From the IMG/VR virus record IMGVR_UViG_2934470325_000001, positions 32,001 through 96,000 of that record: a DNA stretch of 64,000 nucleotides; one strand, written 5' to 3'. Positions 51,439-57,036 of the stretch are shown piece by piece. The position numbers and the translations under genes are program-made. The number at the start of each line of letters is the position of its first letter. The first letter of the stretch is position 1. The notes under the pieces were generated by a model, which saw nothing but the letters and a program-made list of their open reading frames with translations, had not been told where the DNA came from and did not search any database. The DNA is from a virus. Its lineage: Duplodnaviria > Caudoviricetes.

Positions 51439-51621
51439 TCACCGCACACCCCCGCGCCGCTTCACCACAGTCCGGTTGTGCCAATGCCCCGCACACAGGT
51501 ACGGCTCCAACCGGTCGAAGTCGTGGCGCAGGTTGCCGACCTTCCCGGCAGCCAGGGCAGCGGCGATGCGGTCCCGGTAGCGGATCTTCCGGGGTGTCGG
51601 GCACACCCGAGGGGCGCTCAC
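51439..51621 (-). CDS. Small C2H/His metal-binding protein
   Basis: CPTPRKIRY..PYLCAGHWH; GTGA overlap. Confidence 0.6.
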   Translation of the reverse strand: MSAPRVCPTPRKIRYRDRIAAALAAGKVGNLRHDFDRLEPYLCAGHWHNRTVVKRRGGVR

Positions 51622-52262
51622 GCCGCCACCCGCTTCGACCGTCCCCGCGCTGTGCCGTTGCGGCGACGAACCGCCTGCATGATCCGGTGTCCCTCCGTGC
51701 GGCTGCCGGCCCGCTCGTTCAACCACACCCGCGACGGGGTTTCACCCTCATGCCACAGGCGGAAAAATCGGCGGCGCACCTCTTTCATGCGGGAGGTGAC
51801 CGTCCGGTAGGGGACACCAAGAAGGTTGGCGGCGGCTTGAGGGCTGCGCCCGGCGGCCATCGCAGCCACGGTCGCCTGCTGCCGTGCGGTGAGGGCGGCG
51901 AGGATCTGTCGGGTGGCGTGCCGTTCCACCACGGACGTTTCGGGGCTTGGTGTGGTGCGGGCCGCCCACTGCCAGTACATGACGTAGCGGGGTGTCTGCG
52001 AGTGCTGTCCGATGTTCCGGTCGGGAAGCCCGTGGGAGCGTCGGATGGCTGCTTCTTCGCGGAGGATGGCGCTGCGGCCGGCGGTGACAAGGTCGTGGCG
52101 GGCGGGCGGGTTGGTGGTCGTGTAGAGGTGTTCGGCGATGGCGGACCAGGCGGTGTCGTAGCGTTCGTGGAAGTCGGCGGCGCGGGCTCCGACGCCGAGG
52201 GCTGCGTCTCGGGCTGCCGTGTTGATGTCGGCGAGGGTCCAGCCGTGGCGGAGGGCGGTCAT
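51618..52262 (-). CDS. Sigma-70 region 4 / LuxR-like HTH protein
   Basis: ALTARQQATV..GRSPQAAANLLGVPYRTVTSRM. Confidence 0.7.
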   Translation of the reverse strand: MTALRHGWTLADINTAARDAALGVGARAADFHERYDTAWSAIAEHLYTTTNPPARHDLVTAGRSAILREEAAIRRSHGLPDRNIGQHSQTPRYVMYWQWAARTTPSPETSVVERHATRQILAALTARQQATVAAMAAGRSPQAAANLLGVPYRTVTSRMKEVRRRFFRLWHEGETPSRVWLNERAGSRTEGHRIMQAVRRRNGTARGRSKRVAA

Positions 52263-53377
52263 GCTGCGATCCCGTCGAACAGGTCGAGCTGCTGCGGGGC
52301 GGCGAGGCAGAGCGCGGCCGGCGAGGCGGCTGTGGGCCGGGTGTGGTCCCAGTCGTCACCGGTGAAACTGGCCCCGGGCAGGTCGGCGAGGTGCGGGTGG
52401 GTGCTGGCGTAGGTGGCGCGGTCGACCTTGCCGAGGAGCAGACTGTCGGCCACCCCGACGCGGGGGATCAGGTCGCGGGGAATCGTGTCCAACCGCAGCG
52501 GGCCGGTGGCGTAGCCGGCTTGGTGGGCGAGATGGGCGGCATAGACGGTGCAGCGGAGGCGTGCGACGGCGGCGGTGAGCGGGTCGATCTCGATGCCGTC
52601 CACGGACGCGACGACCCGGGGTAGGGCGTGCTGCGGGTCGATGCGGGTGCCGCCGGTCGCGGCCGGGCCCCCGACGGCTTGCCGGGGCCGGAGGGTGCCG
52701 GTGGTGTACCACTCCCACAGGTAGTCCATGGCGCGGATGAGCATGTGGCCGGTGCCGGCGGTGGGGTCGATGGTGCGGATCAACCGCTGGGTGCGGAACT
52801 CGGCGCAGGCGGGGATGAGGGTCCGGTCGAGCAGGAAGTCGCAGATCCACCACGGCGTCTGGGCGAGCGCGAACCCTTTGCGCCGCTCGTCGGTGATCGT
52901 CTGAAGGAGGTCGCCGATGAGCCAGCCGCTGATCGACGGCGGCTCGGCTGTCACCTCGTAGGCGAGGCTGGGTGCGTCGGCGGCCCACCAGTCGGCGAGT
53001 GCCTGCACCGCGTCATCTGACGGTGTGCCCTCGTGGAGGTCCGTGTTGTAGGCGGGGTGCATCAGCCACTGGGTGGCCGGGTGCACGGTGAGGTTGCCCA
53101 TGGCCTGGGCGAGGGCGACGACGGGCCGGGCGGTGCCGGTGGTGTAGCGGGCGGGCACATCGCGCAGGCCGGCGTGGAGGGTCACGTCGATCAGGTGGTG
53201 GTCTTCGGCCCAGGCGACGATCGCGGACAGGTACACCCAGGCGGCGGCGATGCGCTGCCGGCGCTGGTGCCCGTCGTGGGTTCGAGGGCCGGGAATGCTG
53301 TCGGCGAGCCGGTCGGTGTGGCGGTGCAGCGCCTTGACGAGGGGGTTGACGAAGGTGCGGTCGTCGACTGGGTTCAT
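52259..53377 (-). CDS. PglX-like (BREX-2/Pgl) methyltransferase N-terminal half, lacking the NPPY motif
   Basis: IGDLLQ..RRKGFALAQTPWWICDFLLDRTL, IDPTAGTGHML (SAM motif I), VDGIEIDP..AVARLR, VADSL; ends QLDLF; GGAGG RBS. Confidence 0.7.
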   Translation of the reverse strand: MNPVDDRTFVNPLVKALHRHTDRLADSIPGPRTHDGHQRRQRIAAAWVYLSAIVAWAEDHHLIDVTLHAGLRDVPARYTTGTARPVVALAQAMGNLTVHPATQWLMHPAYNTDLHEGTPSDDAVQALADWWAADAPSLAYEVTAEPPSISGWLIGDLLQTITDERRKGFALAQTPWWICDFLLDRTLIPACAEFRTQRLIRTIDPTAGTGHMLIRAMDYLWEWYTTGTLRPRQAVGGPAATGGTRIDPQHALPRVVASVDGIEIDPLTAAVARLRCTVYAAHLAHQAGYATGPLRLDTIPRDLIPRVGVADSLLLGKVDRATYASTHPHLADLPGASFTGDDWDHTRPTAASPAALCLAAPQQLDLFDGIAA

Positions 53378-53405
53378 GGTGACCTCCGTCGGTGTAAGGG
53401 GTGGG

Positions 53406-53437
53406 GGTGCGGTCCGTCCACGACGGCGGACCGCACC
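53406..53437 (-). terminator. Hairpin upstream of PglX-like gene
   Basis: GGTGCGGTCCG / CGGACCGCACC. Confidence 0.55.
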
Positions 53438-53447
53438 CGTGACAAAG

Positions 53448-54293
53448 TCAGGCTGCGAGGCTGTAGGTGGGTAGCGGCCGGTGTGCCAGCTCGTTGACGT
53501 AGCTGCCGGACATGCGTAGGGCGCGTTGGATGGCGGCGAGGGTCATGCCGGCCTGCTGGCCCCGGTGTACGGCGTGGTGCCGCTCCAGGCGCGTCAGGTT
53601 GGCTGGCTCGCCGCTGAGGGCTCGGCGGATGGCCTCCCAGTCGACGATCCGGGCATCGCCGGCCGGGTCCGCGTCGTAGGGGGTGCCGTCTGGGTCGTCG
53701 AGGGCGGCGTCGTCCCACGCGAGAGGCGGTGCCCACCCGTTGCGGCGGCCGGTGTTGCGGGCACGCACGTTGGTACCGGGGGTGAGGGACCACCGGTCGT
53801 ACAGGTCGCAGACGGCACGATGCGTGTCGACGGTGACCATCTGCTGCTTCGCCCACGCCCACTCCCACACTGCCTGGAGTTGCTTGTCGAGTCCCCGGGC
53901 GACGGCGGTGAGGCTGTAGCCGGCGGCCACCAACGCGCGGATGCGGCGGGTGACGCCGACTGCGTGGACCATGCCGGCGGGCAGGGTGGCGGCAGGCTGC
54001 ACGGCGAGAACGAGAGCAGCAGTGGTGGCGCGGATGGTCTTGCGGCGTTCGTGAACGACCGAGTAGAGGGTGCGGGGAGCAACCCCGGCGGCTCTCGCGA
54101 CAGACGCGAGGGACATGCCGCTGTCGCGGAGCTGTTCGACGTGGGTGAGCACGTTCCCGACGGGTACCGGGTGCTGCCATTTGCCTTCGGCGATGAGGCG
54201 GCGTCGCCGCCGGTCGTAGTGGGAGTCGACGCGTTGGCAGCCTCGGCAGCCGGCGGTGTAGGTGCGGTGCTGTCCGCAGTTGAAGCCGGCCAT
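53448..54293 (-). CDS. Multi-HTH DNA-binding protein
   Basis: GMSLASVARAAGV, RRIRALVAAGYSL, GWAPPLAWDD..DDP, GMTLAAI motifs. Confidence 0.75.
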   Translation of the reverse strand: MAGFNCGQHRTYTAGCRGCQRVDSHYDRRRRRLIAEGKWQHPVPVGNVLTHVEQLRDSGMSLASVARAAGVAPRTLYSVVHERRKTIRATTAALVLAVQPAATLPAGMVHAVGVTRRIRALVAAGYSLTAVARGLDKQLQAVWEWAWAKQQMVTVDTHRAVCDLYDRWSLTPGTNVRARNTGRRNGWAPPLAWDDAALDDPDGTPYDADPAGDARIVDWEAIRRALSGEPANLTRLERHHAVHRGQQAGMTLAAIQRALRMSGSYVNELAHRPLPTYSLAA

Positions 54294-55432
54294 CAGCGGG
54301 AGACCCGGATCGGCATGATGAGGTACCGGTAGCCGGGGACGGGCTGCCCGTCGTCTCCGGCGGGGGTGATGACGGCCGGCTTGAACGCGTTCGTGGACGC
54401 GAAGTGGGCGTCACGGCTGCCGAGCTGCTGGAGTCCTTCGGTGAGGTACTGCGGGTTGAAGCCGATGGTGAGCGGGTCACCGGTGAACGTGGCCTCCATG
54501 GCCTCGGAGGCGCGGGCGTCTTCGGTGCCGCCAGCTTCCACGATGAGGCTGTCCGGGCTGAACGACAGCAGCACGGGGGTGGCGCGGTCGGCGACGAGGG
54601 CCACCCGCTTCACGACCTCAACCAGTGCGGCGACGGGGACGACTGCGGTGGCGGCGACCGCCTCCGGCTTCGGGAACAGCGACCGGACGGGCGGGTAGTT
54701 GGCCCCGTCGAGCAGCCGGGAGGTGGTGCGGCGGCCGTCCCGGGCGAAGCCGATCATCCCTTCGCCGGCGTTCTCCTGCGCCAACGCGATCGTGACCTCA
54801 CCGCCAAGCGGGCCGAGGGCCTTCGCCGTGTCATGGAGGGTGCGCGCGGGGACGAGGGCGTTGATGTTCACGTCGGGGTTGTCCGGCGTCCACCGCATCT
54901 CCCGCACGGCCAGCCGGTACCGGTCGGTGGCGAGCAGCGCCATCGTGTTGCCGGCGAGTTCGACGCGGACGCCGGTCATCATCGGCAGCGTCTCGTCCCG
55001 GCCGGCGGCCACGGCGACCTGGGCGACGGCGGTAGCGAACGCGGCGGCGTCCACCGTCCCCGCCGGTGCCGGCATCGCCGGTAGCGCCGGGTAGTCCTCC
55101 ACCGGCATCGTCGGCAGGGTGAACCGGGCCGAGCCGCACACCAACTCCAGGTGCGCGCCGACGCTGGCGAGGCTTACCGGCTTGTGCGGTAGCGCCTTGG
55201 TGATCTCGGCGAGCAGCCGGCCCGACACGAGCACGCCGCCGGGGTCGGTGACGGTGCCGCGAACGTGCACCTCGGTCGACACCTCGTAGTCGAACGAGCT
55301 GACAGTCACCCCGTTGTCGTCGGCGATCAGTCGTACCCCGGCGAGGACGGGCACGGACGGGCGGTTCGGTAGGGCCTTCGCGGCGTCGTGAACGGCGTCG
55401 GCGAACGCGCCGCGCTCAACGGTCAGCTTCAC
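54293..55432 (-). CDS. dnaN: DNA polymerase III beta sliding clamp (phage copy)
   Basis: RPSVPVLAGV, FDYEVS, LVSGRLLAEI, LPTMPVEDYP, ATDRYRLA, IGFNPQYL, YRYLIMPIR. Confidence 0.95.
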   Translation of the reverse strand: MKLTVERGAFADAVHDAAKALPNRPSVPVLAGVRLIADDNGVTVSSFDYEVSTEVHVRGTVTDPGGVLVSGRLLAEITKALPHKPVSLASVGAHLELVCGSARFTLPTMPVEDYPALPAMPAPAGTVDAAAFATAVAQVAVAAGRDETLPMMTGVRVELAGNTMALLATDRYRLAVREMRWTPDNPDVNINALVPARTLHDTAKALGPLGGEVTIALAQENAGEGMIGFARDGRRTTSRLLDGANYPPVRSLFPKPEAVAATAVVPVAALVEVVKRVALVADRATPVLLSFSPDSLIVEAGGTEDARASEAMEATFTGDPLTIGFNPQYLTEGLQQLGSRDAHFASTNAFKPAVITPAGDDGQPVPGYRYLIMPIRVSR

Positions 55433-56049
55433 GGGGCGACTCCTTCGCTAGTGGTGGTCGGGGTGGTGGGCCAGGTGCGCCAGCCGATGTGGCTGCGGGA
55501 TGCGACAGGGCCTCGCGGCTGCTGCTGGTAGTGGGACGCCAACCCATCCGACCCGTACGGGCGACTGGAGGCGCTGGTGAGCTGGAACAGGCAAAGCTGA
55601 CCGATGCGCATGCCCGGGTGCAGCAGGATCGGCCGGGGAGCGTGGTTGACCAGCTCCAACGTGATGTGCCCGGAGAAGCCGGGATCGATGAAACCGGCCG
55701 TGATGTGTGTTGCCAGCCCGAGACGGCCCATGCTGCTGCGGCCTTCCACGCGGGCGGCGAGGGTGGCGTCGAGGGTGATGTGCTCGACGGTGGAAGCCAG
55801 CACCATCTGGCCAGGCGCGATGAGCGCTCCCCTGTCGCTGATCTCGACGGGCATCATCGGGTTCTCGGCGGCCGGGTCGATGTAGTCGTCGACATACCAG
55901 ATGTCGGGGTGACGCTCTGGCCACATCAGCAGGTGCTGGTCGAGTCGCACGTCAATGGATGACGGCTGGATCAGGGACGGCTCGTGTGGGGTGATGCGGA
56001 GCCGGCCGGAGTCGATGGCGCTGGCAATGTCGGTGTCGGAGAGCAGCAT
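55429..56049 (-). CDS. dcd: dCTP deaminase
   Basis: MLLSD, IQPSSIDVRL, EGRSSMGRLGL, TAGFIDPGFSGHITLEL, PGMRIGQL. Confidence 0.95.
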   Translation of the reverse strand: MLLSDTDIASAIDSGRLRITPHEPSLIQPSSIDVRLDQHLLMWPERHPDIWYVDDYIDPAAENPMMPVEISDRGALIAPGQMVLASTVEHITLDATLAARVEGRSSMGRLGLATHITAGFIDPGFSGHITLELVNHAPRPILLHPGMRIGQLCLFQLTSASSRPYGSDGLASHYQQQPRGPVASRSHIGWRTWPTTPTTTSEGVAP

Positions 56050-56183
56050 CACGACTCCTCCGATCTGGTGGGGGTGGGCGTCTCGCTGGAGTCGCAGACG
56101 GGGCAGGTCTGCCCGTGGGCGGCGTGCCGGCGGCGGGCACTGTCGGTGCCGCACGGCAGGACGGCGTTGGGGTGCAGGCTCAC
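56049..56183 (-). CDS. 44-aa Zn-binding peptide
   Basis: PCGTDSARRRHAAHGQTCPVC; coupled at both ends; not in ORF track. Confidence 0.6.
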   Translation of the reverse strand: MSLHPNAVLPCGTDSARRRHAAHGQTCPVCDSSETPTPTRSEES

Positions 56184-56716
56184 GCGGCCACCGCCCCAAC
56201 CGGTCGAAGGCTCTCCACCCCGAGCCACAACCAGCCGCCCAACGGCCGGCAGTACCGCTGCACCGACCCGAACAACGGCACATGCGGGCTGCGCTCAAAC
56301 TCACCCAGCGCGTTCTCCGTCGTGCCCAGCAGCCGGGCGAGGCTGGCCTGTGTGTGTCCGCACGCCCGGCGTGCCGTCACCAGACCGGACATGAGGTGCT
56401 GCTGGTCCCAGACGGACGCCGCCGTGAACTCGGCGGGACGGAAGGCGAGCATCGCCGGGTCGTCGTACGGTCCGCCGGGTACACCGTCAGGGAACATGAC
56501 GATGCGTAGCCCGAGGTGGTGGGCAATGCGTCGGGCCGGGTTGATGCGCTGAAACTCGCCCAGCTCGTAGCGAGCTACAGCGGTTTGGGTGCATCCGAGG
56601 ATCGCGGCGAGTGACGCTTGGCTGTGCCCTGCCTCCTTTCGGGCTGTGATGAGGAGTGCCCGTAGGGCGAGGCGTGCTTCCCGGTCGTCGGGGTGCAGGT
56701 CGGTGGGGGCGCGCAT
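56180..56716 (-). CDS. Tandem XRE-HTH protein
   Basis: ARKEAGHSQASLAAILGCTQTAVARYE and ARRACGHTQASLARLLGTTENALGEFE. Confidence 0.8.
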   Translation of the reverse strand: MRAPTDLHPDDREARLALRALLITARKEAGHSQASLAAILGCTQTAVARYELGEFQRINPARRIAHHLGLRIVMFPDGVPGGPYDDPAMLAFRPAEFTAASVWDQQHLMSGLVTARRACGHTQASLARLLGTTENALGEFERSPHVPLFGSVQRYCRPLGGWLWLGVESLRPVGAVAA

Positions 56717-57036
56717 CAGGCGGCCTCGGCGTGGAACAGGGCGGCCGGGTGGGCGCGGTCGGGGCGCGGGGTGACCGCCTGCCACCGCCGGGCGGTCATG
56801 GTGGCGTGTACGTGGCTGCCGGCGAGGTCAACCATGCCGAGGTCGTCGGCGGCGTACACGAGGTCGTCGAGGCTGGCCCCGGTCATGGTGTCGATGTAGC
56901 CGTGGCGGGTGGTGTGGTGGACTCGGCCGGTGTCGGCGAGGTTGAGCAGGTGGTGCAGGTCGGTGTCGTTCATGGCGGTCCTGTCGGGGTGGGGGCCCGC
57001 CCCGGTGGTGGGGCGGGCCGTCGTACGGGAGGTCAT
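56716..57036 (-). CDS. Hypothetical protein
   Basis: Coupled at both ends; alternative start ATG 56973. Confidence 0.55.
   Translation of the reverse strand: MTSRTTARPTTGAGPHPDRTAMNDTDLHHLLNLADTGRVHHTTRHGYIDTMTGASLDDLVYAADDLGMVDLAGSHVHATMTARRWQAVTPRPDRAHPAALFHAEAA

What the first reader, a model, noticed from the sequence alone, without database searches (positions are those of the whole stretch)
52259..53377. Truncated PglX homolog with C-terminal QLDLF: candidate anti-BREX/Pgl decoy
Seen: an intact 372-aa ORF with RBS, coupled to the next gene, containing AAAWV..V.WAED..LI, GDLLQ...RKGFALAQTP..CDFLLDRTL, IDPTAGTGHML, GIEIDP..AVARLR and VADSL. It stops before any NPPY motif or target-recognition domain and ends QLDLF (52277-52291). 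Known, from recall: these blocks match the N-terminal half of PglX, the methyltransferase of the Streptomyces Pgl/BREX type 2 system, and QL[SD]LF binds the beta clamp; dnaN is two genes upstream. Inference: a host defence subunit captured and cut down to a SAM-binding, non-catalytic mimic that poisons the Pgl complex, possibly delivered to replicating phage DNA on the clamp.
Basis: partly seen in the sequence, partly recalled or inferred. Interest (0 to 1): 0.8.

Follow-up and report, generated by a model that had tools for sequence, protein, structure and literature searches.

The report
Clamp-tailed half-PglX prophage protein
A prophage gene encodes only the front third of the PglX defence methyltransferase, without its catalytic and DNA-reading parts but with a tail that looks like a sliding-clamp anchor; it belongs to a conserved, unstudied family of mobile-element proteins that may disarm Pgl/BREX-2 defence, which nobody has tested.

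Summary
Window 52259-53377 (-) is an intact 372-aa ORF with an RBS, coupled to the next gene by an ATGA overlap. dnaN lies two genes upstream.

The protein is homologous to residues ~59-325 of BREX-2 PglX: the helical N-terminal domain plus methyltransferase motifs X, I, II and III. It has no NPPY, no recognition domain and no second half anywhere in the 108.6-kb provirus.

It is not a recent capture or a wreck:
- At least 208 relatives of about 300-440 aa exist in actinomycetes.
- They form their own lineage, outside the full-length PglX clade.
- dN/dS is 0.22-0.33 in the five closest pairs, and the SAM-pocket residues are invariant.

The tail is predicted disordered. A Q[LFM]xL[FWL] motif sits near the C-terminus in 44 of 120 relatives, against 0.36 expected from shuffles.

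Phage-borne members mostly keep the motif. A nested clade in non-phage islands lacks it. Sister forms still carry NPPY.

The anti-Pgl decoy reading stays plausible but unsupported by anything beyond homology. Co-occurrence with BREX-2 PglX is mixed, and clamp binding could not be modelled.

This scan reached the same reading four times before on other genomes.

The parts
52259..53377 (-). half-PglX gene, 372 aa
   Evidence: ORF; third-position GC 0.92; PglX models E 1.7e-31 and 8.2e-30; AlphaFold2 mean pLDDT 85.8, pTM 0.85
53383..53387 (-). Shine-Dalgarno GGAGG, 5 nt before the ATG
   Evidence: read directly
52928..53266 (-). residues 38-150: helical domain homologous to the N-terminal domain of BREX-2 PglX (WAEDH and DWW blocks)
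   Evidence: hhalign alignment starts at residue 38 against PglX residue 59; helices in the model
52418..52927 (-). residues 151-320: first half of a gamma-class N6-adenine methyltransferase domain (motifs X, I, II, III) with only three beta strands
   Evidence: D204, G208, G210 and D311 are identical in 40 of 40 aligned relatives, and position 263 is E or D in 40 of 40
52748..52768 (-). motif I, DPTAGTG (residues 204-210), the SAM-binding glycine loop
52262..52369 (-). residues 337-372: predicted disordered tail
   Evidence: pLDDT below 50 for residues 337-342 and 346-372; length and sequence vary across relatives
52277..52291 (-). QLDLF, a beta-clamp-binding-type pentapeptide five residues from the C-terminus
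   Evidence: 44 of 120 relatives strict, 63 of 120 loose; shuffles give 0.36 and 5.28
54293..55432 (-). phage-borne dnaN (beta clamp), two genes upstream
   Evidence: three Pfam clamp domains, E 1.7e-40 to 1.4e-25
53448..54293 (-). 281-aa multi-HTH protein between dnaN and the half-PglX gene
   Evidence: phrog_1590 E 2.7e-53; HTH_35, HTH_38 and HTH_7 above their cut-offs
51618..52262 (-). 214-aa protein with a sigma-70 region-4-like HTH, translationally coupled downstream; a recurrent neighbour of half-PglX genes
   Evidence: Weak hits for the window copy. Sigma70_r4_2 in 4 of 11 homologues, best E 9.1e-06. ECF sigma CnrH E 0.004. Adjacent to the half-PglX gene in 7 of 29 distinct family loci
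53406..53437 (-). perfect 11-bp inverted repeat (10-nt loop) between the stop of the HTH gene and the RBS of the half-PglX gene
   Evidence: read directly; not folded or tested

Best explanation
The gene encodes a non-catalytic 'half-PglX'. It comprises the helical N-terminal domain and the SAM-binding first half (motifs X, I, II, III) of a BREX-2/Pgl-type adenine methyltransferase, followed by a disordered tail that ends in a beta-clamp-binding-type peptide.

Proposed mechanism:
1. It is made from the prophage's early/replication operon.
2. The tail docks it on a sliding clamp, either the phage's own DnaN or the host's, at replicating phage DNA.
3. There the PglX-like front part acts by mimicry. 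It occupies or traps the Pgl/BREX-2 partners that normally engage PglX's front half, so that phage DNA is neither marked nor restricted.

What is shown: the architecture, the family, its conservation, and the missing catalytic parts.

What is inferred: SAM binding (from invariant residues), clamp binding (from the motif) and the anti-Pgl action (from homology alone).
For: Homology:
- The match to the front of BREX-2 PglX includes its N-terminal domain, not just a generic methyltransferase core.
- The nearest longer relatives tested are true BREX-2 PglX: 3 of 3 score 1244-1582 bits against a cut-off of 400.
- Pfam's generic methyltransferase models do not match the protein (0 families at E <= 0.1).

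No catalysis and no partner half:
- No NPPY and only three beta strands in the model.
- tblastn with nine C-terminal halves against the 108.6-kb provirus found nothing below E 0.017.
- Eco57I, N6_Mtase and N6_N4_Mtase give no match at E <= 1.

Maintained, not decaying:
- 208 relatives of similar length.
- dN/dS is 0.22-0.33 in the five closest pairs.
- SAM-pocket residues are identical in 40 of 40 relatives.

Tail motif: far above chance and always within 14 residues of the C-terminus.

Loss of catalysis without loss of the gene: on the tree, NPPY-keeping short forms are sister to the NPPY-less forms. The retained function therefore does not need catalysis.

Carriers are mobile elements:
- Phage early/replication/recombination modules: RecT 3, SSB 3, WhiB 3, DnaN 2, YqaJ 2 of 149 ORFs.
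- Non-phage islands: DUF4192 6, DprA 4, M23 peptidase 4, integrase 2 of 95 ORFs.

The proposed target exists in the host range: BREX-2 PglX scores over the cut-off in 45 of 201 genomes of the family sampled. 5 of 9 half-PglX carriers there also have it, against 40 of 192 others (naive Fisher p 0.028).

Literature:
- PglX and PglZ interact genetically, and Pgl marks progeny phage (PMC4365076, passages read).
- The N-terminal domain of BrxX is proposed to contact BrxZ and BrxC (PMC11842806, passages read).
Against: - No experiment or model links this protein to any Pgl/BREX protein.
- The co-occurrence signal is weak. Without the seeded centre genome it is 4 of 8 against 40 of 192 (p 0.072). It is not corrected for phylogeny or genome size, and one of the co-occurring pglX genes is broken into four frames.
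- In the second family searched, 0 of 4 carriers have a BREX-2 PglX. One further carrier from a third family also has none. Three of these five carry the tail motif at loci read; the other two were not read for it.
- The family is not nested in PglX, so mimicry of a present-day host protein is not demonstrated.
- Invariant SAM-pocket residues are not required by a pure protein decoy.
- A sigma-like gene recurs beside half-PglX genes, which suggests another role.
- 2 of 29 family loci look broken (L012, L022), and one genome copy holds a TGA.
Confidence: 0.35

Rival explanations
1. It is a clamp-tethered factor of the phage's own replication or late-transcription programme and has nothing to do with defence. 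Riding the clamp on replicating DNA, it would work with the adjacent sigma-70 region-4-like protein. The analogy is T4 gp33/gp55 with the gp45 clamp, or Mu MuC with the beta clamp. Its PglX ancestry would supply only a fold.
For: - A homologue of the 214-aa sigma-like gene lies directly beside the half-PglX gene in 7 of 29 distinct family loci, and beside two more distant mid-size relatives (L029, L058). This holds across lineages only 30-45% identical.
- In the window the two genes overlap by ATGA.
- The gene sits inside the replication module dnaN-HTH-X-sigma-like-...-DnaC-like-DnaB.
- Mu late transcription uses the beta clamp (PMC12867686 and its preprint; search listing and abstract only).
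Against: - 22 of 29 loci show no such neighbour at E < 1e-8.
- None of the nine non-phage-island loci scanned shows the sigma-like neighbour, and none has a clamp motif; the family is conserved there all the same.
- It does not explain the invariant SAM pocket.
- The sigma-like assignment is itself weak: the window copy is below all Pfam cut-offs.
Confidence: 0.25
2. It is one half of a methyltransferase completed in trans. The SAM-binding half would pair with a separately encoded catalytic/recognition half from the host or another element, to methylate phage DNA at the fork and protect it.
For: - The break falls at a natural module boundary. Two viral contigs (L078, L079) carry a circularly permuted form with NPPY before motif I that ends right after motif III.
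- Mid-size relatives with a complete catalytic domain also end in clamp-type motifs in 5 of 10 loci.
- The SAM-pocket residues are invariant.
Against: - No second half is present in the provirus.
- No conserved neighbour of that kind appears in 29 loci.
- The model folds confidently on its own.
Confidence: 0.12
3. It is a SAM-binding sensor or sink. It would bind S-adenosylmethionine at the fork and affect SAM-dependent host systems (restriction-modification, BREX) or phage processes, without contacting Pgl proteins.
For: - Motifs X, I, II and III are invariant.
- SAM depletion is a known anti-BREX and anti-restriction route (SAM lyase, named in 10.1101/2025.06.06.658234, passage read).
Against: - A stoichiometric binder cannot lower cellular SAM much.
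- Half of the pocket (motif IV) is missing.
- It does not explain why the PglX-specific N-terminal domain is conserved.
Confidence: 0.1
4. It is a decaying remnant of a clamp-tethered phage methyltransferase and has no function of its own.
For: - It lacks catalytic parts.
- A few copies look broken (L012, L022, and one TGA).
Against: - The same truncation point is shared by at least 208 proteins down to 47% identity.
- dN/dS is 0.22-0.33.
- There are 36 invariant columns.
- The gene has an RBS, translational coupling and a third-position GC of 0.92.
Confidence: 0.04

Closest known systems
PglX of BREX type 2 / Pgl (NCBIfam NF033451, PADLOC PDLC02529; the Streptomyces coelicolor enzyme studied in PMC4365076)
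   Same: The N-terminal helical domain and methyltransferase motifs X, I, II and III align over residues 38-319 to PglX 59-325. Both occur in actinomycetes.
   Different: - 372 aa against about 1150-1250 aa.
- No NPPY, no motifs V-VIII, no recognition or C-terminal domain.
- Scores 103 bits against a cut-off of 400.
- Forms a separate lineage on the tree.
- Sits in a prophage replication module, not a pgl operon.
- Has a clamp-type tail; none was found in the last 40 residues of the 3 full-length PglX checked.
BREX-1 PglX/BrxX structures (8C45, 8Q56, 9EWZ) and relatives such as PacII M, MmeI, DrdV and type I HsdM
   Same: The fold of the model matches their N-terminal helical part plus the start of the methyltransferase domain: VIA-align Z 11.7-13.6 with 238-317 residues aligned. 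Foldseek ranks the same set first.
   Different: - Sequence identity is 10-15%, rmsd 4.4-6.1 A, and Foldseek E-values only reach 2.3e-03.
- All of these are complete enzymes with a full beta sheet.
Known anti-BREX factors: T7 Ocr (DNA mimic binding PglX) and T3 SAM lyase (PMC7261183 listing; PMC11341690 and 10.1101/2025.06.06.658234 passages)
   Same: Carried by a phage, and a candidate to interfere with the PglX step of BREX.
   Different: There is no sequence or fold relation. The proposed route, mimicry of PglX itself by a truncated homologue, has not been described in the papers found.
Clamp-coupled phage transcription: T4 gp33/gp55-gp45 (recalled) and Mu MuC with the beta clamp (PMC12867686, abstract only)
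   Same: A phage protein with a terminal clamp-binding peptide, encoded next to a sigma-like gene.
   Different: No homology. A role in transcription is only a rival hypothesis here.
Mid-size PglX-like methyltransferase-domain proteins of actinomycete mobile elements (loci L023, L026, L058, L075, L077 and others)
   Same: Related core, about 29-37% identity. 5 of 10 loci end in a Q..L[FL] motif. Some have the same sigma-like neighbour.
   Different: They keep NPPY and about 160-250 residues after it (185-198 in the five motif-bearing loci). PglX residues to about 510 align, so they may be active. They are uncharacterised as well.

Membership tests
BREX-2 PglX (NF033451 equivalog) | whole-protein score at or above the curated cut-off (400 bits) | tested here: not met
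   103.3 bits, E 8.2e-30; 101.6 bits in the six-frame search
BREX-2 PglX (NF033451 equivalog) | homology of the N-terminal domain and motifs X-III | tested here: met
   hhalign probability 100%, E 7.8e-42, 255 columns, residues 38-319 against PglX 59-325
BREX-2 PglX (NF033451 equivalog) | catalytic motif IV (NPPY), required for Pgl (Y381A mutant, PMC4365076 figure legend) | tested here: not met
   no [NDS]PP[YFW] in the protein; the alignment ends 40-50 residues before the PglX NPPY
BREX-2 PglX (NF033451 equivalog) | recognition and C-terminal domains (about 800 further residues) | tested here: not met
   the ORF ends at residue 372; the 120 relatives listed are 303-439 aa; the word-based search among 652-2000-aa proteins found none (weak evidence)
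BREX-2 PglX (NF033451 equivalog) | location in an operon with pglW/pglY/pglZ-type genes | tested here: not met
   the neighbours are DnaN, HTH proteins, a sigma-like protein, a DnaC-like protein, DnaB, a dCTP deaminase-like protein and WhiB; PglZ was not searched for by name
active gamma-class N6-adenine DNA methyltransferase | SAM-binding motifs X, I, II, III | tested here: met
   QTP 173-175, DPxxGxG 204-210, E263/D265, D311; invariant or nearly invariant in 40 relatives
active gamma-class N6-adenine DNA methyltransferase | motifs IV-VIII and a complete Rossmann-type sheet | tested here: not met
   no NPPY; the model has three strands, at 202-204, 259-263 and 306-309; Pfam N6_Mtase and Eco57I models do not match
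beta-clamp-binding proteins (QL[SD]LF-type motif; consensus recalled) | consensus pentapeptide in a disordered terminus | tested here: met
   QLDLF at residues 363-367 of 372; tail pLDDT below 50
beta-clamp-binding proteins (QL[SD]LF-type motif; consensus recalled) | motif conserved among homologues beyond chance | tested here: met
   44 of 120 strict against 0.36 in shuffles; 63 of 120 loose against 5.28; also present in NPPY-keeping sisters and mid-size relatives
beta-clamp-binding proteins (QL[SD]LF-type motif; consensus recalled) | physical binding to DnaN | not testable with these tools
anti-defence protein (anti-BREX) | relieves BREX/Pgl restriction, or binds one of its components | not testable with these tools
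   needs an experiment; the genome co-occurrence counts are mixed

The most novel reading that the evidence does not exclude
Half-PglX proteins would be the first inhibitors of BREX-2/Pgl. They would also be the first case of a defence-enzyme look-alike that a mobile element anchors on the sliding clamp, so that it meets the defence complex exactly where new phage DNA appears. The clamp-less clade would do the same job for conjugative or integrative islands. The related mid-size forms would be clamp-tethered bacterial DNA methyltransferases, a bacterial parallel to PCNA-bound DNMT1.
Probability: 0.3. Interest if true: 0.85.

Novelty: new variant of a known kind. Interest (0 to 1): 0.6.

Why it matters
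How BREX and Pgl stop phages is still unknown, and no phage countermeasure to the type 2 (Pgl) system has been described in the papers I could search.

A conserved, catalytically empty copy of PglX's front half on phages and islands of the very taxa that carry BREX-2 is a ready-made probe. Whatever it binds should be what the front of PglX binds.

The clamp-type tail would also place the contest at the replication fork. That is testable with a peptide deletion.

If the rival reading is right instead, the family would be a new clamp-dependent regulator in actinophages. Either result is reachable with routine laboratory-strain experiments.

Tried and rejected
Recent capture from the host Pgl system: rejected. 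The short family is one side of a branch with 100% support and lies outside the full-length clade. Identity to full-length PglX is 30% in the one pairwise BLASTP run and 31-36% in the phmmer rows.

Split gene within the prophage: rejected.
- tblastn with nine C-terminal halves gave a best E of 0.017 and nothing coherent. Repeated weak hits at provirus position about 100.9 kb proved to be noise on reading the frame.
- The three Pfam amino-methyltransferase models gave no match at E <= 1.

Isolated phages: tblastn against 50,697 phage records found no match at E <= 1e-5.

BFVD viral structures: only generic long adenine methyltransferases, best E 3.5e-05.

Foldseek against PDB: no hit at E <= 0.001. 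The expected enzyme class ranks first at E 2.3e-03 to 1e-01.

ESM Atlas: the protein's own unnamed cluster of 92 members, then generic N6_Mtase and MmeI clusters.

Longer relatives by word search: none. The exhaustive search did find full-length PglX.

Co-occurrence with BREX-2: mixed, as set out under evidence. The tallies include one unpublished genome (G201). It counts there as having neither an over-cut-off PglX nor a half-PglX.

Literature: searches, and passages, gave no description of a truncated phage PglX or a clamp-bound bacterial methyltransferase. Supplements were not opened.

Choices made before counts:
- ORFs in loci were called with my own crude third-position-GC filter, taking the longest start, so lengths are inflated.
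- L066 and L067 duplicate L006 and L015.
- L012, L022, L066 and L067 were dropped before the dN/dS run.
- One of 96 ORFs and 4 of 153 ORFs were dropped to fit the caps.
- The 76 rows of the tree were hand-picked from about 270 proteins and 79 loci.
- Six of the nine 'island' loci were assigned to the clamp-less clade by their shared tail pattern, not by the tree.
Full report
THE OBSERVATION

Window 52259-53377 (-) is an intact 372-aa ORF. Its third-position GC is 0.92, typical of real genes in this 70% GC DNA. GGAGG lies 5 nt before the ATG. The stop overlaps the start of the next ORF (51618-52262) in an ATGA. QLDLF is encoded at 52277-52291, five residues from the end. The record is an IMG/VR provirus of 108,622 bases.

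The gene lies in a minus-strand replication module. The genes run in this order:
- DUF5131
- DUF4326
- WhiB-like
- HTH_3
- dCTP deaminase-like
- DnaN (54293-55432)
- a 281-aa multi-HTH protein (phrog_1590)
- the gene in question
- a 214-aa sigma-region-4-like protein
- a 335-aa unknown
- a DnaC/IstB-like ATPase
- DnaB

WHAT THE PROTEIN IS

Pfam finds nothing at E <= 0.1. The PADLOC PglX model (E 1.7e-31, residues 38-320 on profile positions 59-326 of 1189) and NCBIfam BREX_2_MTaseX (E 8.2e-30, 103 bits, cut-off 400) match the front third only.

An exhaustive phmmer search found 462 proteins at E <= 0.001. After a handful of short relatives, the next hits include 1150-1250-aa proteins at 31-36% identity, aligned from their residue ~60 to ~320. 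Three of three tested are bona fide BREX-2 PglX, scoring 1244-1582 bits.

A profile-profile comparison of 40 family members with 29 full-length PglX gives probability 100% and E 7.8e-42 over residues 38-319 against PglX 59-325. Homology therefore covers the PglX-specific helical N-terminal domain as well as methyltransferase motifs X (QTP), I (DPTAGTG), II (GIEIDP) and III (VADSL).

In the three full-length proteins checked, NPPY follows motif III by some 40-50 residues, at positions 364, 368 and 407. Here there is no NPPY-type motif at all.

AlphaFold2 with the family alignment gives mean pLDDT 85.8 and pTM 0.85. The model is a helical domain plus only three beta strands, and residues 337-372 are predicted disordered.

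VIA-align places it on PacII M, Salmonella and E. coli PglX/BrxX, BsaXI, MmeI, DrdV and type I HsdM, with Z 10.8-13.6. Foldseek ranks the same class first but weakly.

The provirus holds no second half. C-terminal-half queries and three Pfam amino-methyltransferase models find nothing.

THE FAMILY

The word-indexed search found 208 relatives at E <= 0.001. The 120 listed are 303-439 aa long and 47-82% identical to the query. The nearest named ones come from Micromonospora; others come from Streptosporangium, Glycomyces, Spongiactinospora, Phytohabitans and Dactylosporangium.

Forty aligned members share 36 invariant columns. D204, G208, G210 and D311 are identical in 40 of 40, and position 263 is acidic in 40 of 40.

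Pairwise dN/dS (NG86) for the five closest pairs of loci (dS 0.16-0.36) is 0.22-0.33.

Some copies look damaged: 2 of 29 distinct loci look broken (L012, L022), and one genome copy contains a TGA.

I built a quick maximum-likelihood tree of 76 hand-picked rows. It separates three groups:
- the short family (support 100);
- full-length BREX-2 PglX (support 100);
- a group of mid-size, about 430-520-aa, proteins (support 89).

Within the short family:
- Forms that still carry NPPY but stop about 60 residues later (P0124, L021, L073, L074) are sister to the NPPY-less forms (support 99).
- A clade of eight without a clamp motif is nested among motif-bearing members (support 99).

The tree is unrooted. 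The direction from complete to truncated is an inference.

THE TAIL

A strict Q[LFM]xL[FWL] motif occurs after motif III in 44 of 120 relatives, always within 14 residues of the C-terminus. Shuffled tails give a mean of 0.36 and a maximum of 3 in 1000 shuffles. The motif occurs in none of the protein bodies. A loose version occurs in 63 of 120, against 5.28 in shuffles.

The motif sits at the end of a variable, proline-rich linker. It also ends the NPPY-keeping sisters and 5 of 10 mid-size relatives. It matches the beta-clamp-binding consensus QL[SD]LF, which I recall rather than derive from a call.

A DnaN homologue lies within 8 kb in only 2 of 29 family loci. The usual partner, if any, would therefore be the host clamp.

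WHERE THE FAMILY LIVES

Around 13 motif-clade loci, 149 ORFs include RecT 3, SSB 3, WhiB 3, DnaN 2, YqaJ 2, D12 methylase 2, sigma-70 regions 2 and 4 in 2, and DnaB, DUF5131 and DpdA once each. These are phage early, replication and recombination modules, and 11 loci come from IMG/VR viral contigs.

Around nine loci of the clamp-less type, 95 ORFs include DUF4192 6, DprA-like 4, M23 peptidase 4, prepilin peptidase 3, integrase 2 and DUF932 1. None of the phage replication or recombination families seen in the other set appears among the 25 families listed. These look like non-phage integrated islands.

The motif is present in 14 of 29 distinct loci and in 0 of 10 of the island type.

A homologue of the 214-aa sigma-like gene lies directly beside the half-PglX gene in 7 of 29 loci, and beside two mid-size relatives. 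Its family matches Sigma70_r4_2 in 4 of 11 members (best E 9.1e-06), and the ECF sigma factor CnrH at E 0.004.

DOES IT TRACK BREX-2?

In a sample of 201 genomes of the family of one carrier, BREX-2 PglX scores over the cut-off in 45. Half-PglX, at 470-572 bits and cleanly separated from PglX N-termini at 80-136 bits, occurs in 9.

Five of those 9 also have PglX, against 40 of the other 192 (odds ratio 4.75, naive p 0.028). Without the seeded centre genome the count is 4 of 8 (p 0.072). One of the five pglX genes is split over four frames.

In a second family, 4 of 201 genomes carry half-PglX and none of the 4 has a BREX-2 PglX. Of two further carriers from outside the samples, one has it and one does not.

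Both tallies for the first family include one unpublished genome (G201), which is negative for both. I regard this evidence as inconclusive.

MECHANISM

Three things are shown:
- a conserved, stand-alone, non-catalytic PglX front half;
- an intact-looking SAM pocket;
- a conserved clamp-type terminal peptide, on mobile elements of taxa in which BREX-2 is common.

The rest is inferred. The lineage kept the gene while losing first motifs VI-VIII and then motif IV, so its function does not need methyl transfer. What remains is a PglX-like surface and a tether.

In Pgl, PglX is toxic without PglZ, and progeny phage are thought to be marked in the first round and restricted in the second (PMC4365076, passages). 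For BREX-1, the BrxX N-terminal domain is proposed to contact BrxZ and BrxC (PMC11842806, passages).

A clamp-borne look-alike could therefore compete for those partners at the fork. I put this at 0.35. The rivals are:
- a clamp-dependent role with the sigma-like neighbour (0.25);
- a trans-completed methyltransferase (0.12);
- a SAM sensor or sink (0.10);
- a remnant (0.04).

NOVELTY

My literature searches found no description of such a protein. This scan, however, reached the same reading on other genomes in four earlier follow-ups. I consulted them after forming my own reading. What is added here:
- the three-lineage tree with NPPY-keeping sisters;
- the clamp-less island clade;
- the absence of a second half in the provirus;
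- the dN/dS values;
- the mixed BREX-2 co-occurrence counts.

Noticed in passing
window 53406-53437 (-): A perfect 11-bp inverted repeat with a 10-nt loop lies between the stop of the 281-aa HTH gene (53448) and the RBS of the half-PglX gene. No T-run follows it. It could be a terminator/attenuator or an operator.
   Followed up: no
L078:7068-8597 and L079:7068-8597 (IMG/VR viral contigs): A 509-aa open frame holds a circularly permuted relative. The NPPY half (residue 72) comes before motif I (residue 383), and the frame ends right after motif III. This is the same boundary at which the half-PglX family is cut.
   Followed up: partly
L023, L026, L058, L075, L077: Mid-size (about 450-520 aa) PglX-like proteins have a complete catalytic domain, no recognition domain and a C-terminal Q..L[FL] motif. 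They are possible clamp-tethered DNA methyltransferases of actinomycete mobile elements.
   Followed up: partly
L025-L061 (Streptomyces genomes), e.g. L044:1-16435: A strongly syntenic same-strand island carries two tandem PglX-like 436- and 453-aa paralogues, a further N6_Mtase-like gene, a GNAT, DUF4007 and an ADP-ribosylglycohydrolase. No clamp motif is present and the function is unknown.
   Followed up: partly
G195:C5:3003123-3006656: In a genome that also carries a half-PglX, the full-length BREX-2 pglX is split over four reading frames. It may be a pseudogene or a phase-variable gene.
   Followed up: no
window 55429-56304 (-) and 56180-56785 (-): The dCTP deaminase-like ORF, as called from its first start, has an arginine/proline-rich 85-residue extension that overlaps the upstream HTH_3 gene. 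The true start is probably further in.
   Followed up: no
G000:C1 about 24436 (+), outside the window: An NPPYQRG..W block sits in an open frame of the provirus. It resembles the DUF262/GmrSD N-terminal motif (recalled), not a methyltransferase.
   Followed up: no
L021:7234-7773 and L021:9465-10013: Two copies of the sigma-region-4-like gene flank an NPPY-keeping half-PglX gene in one locus.
   Followed up: no
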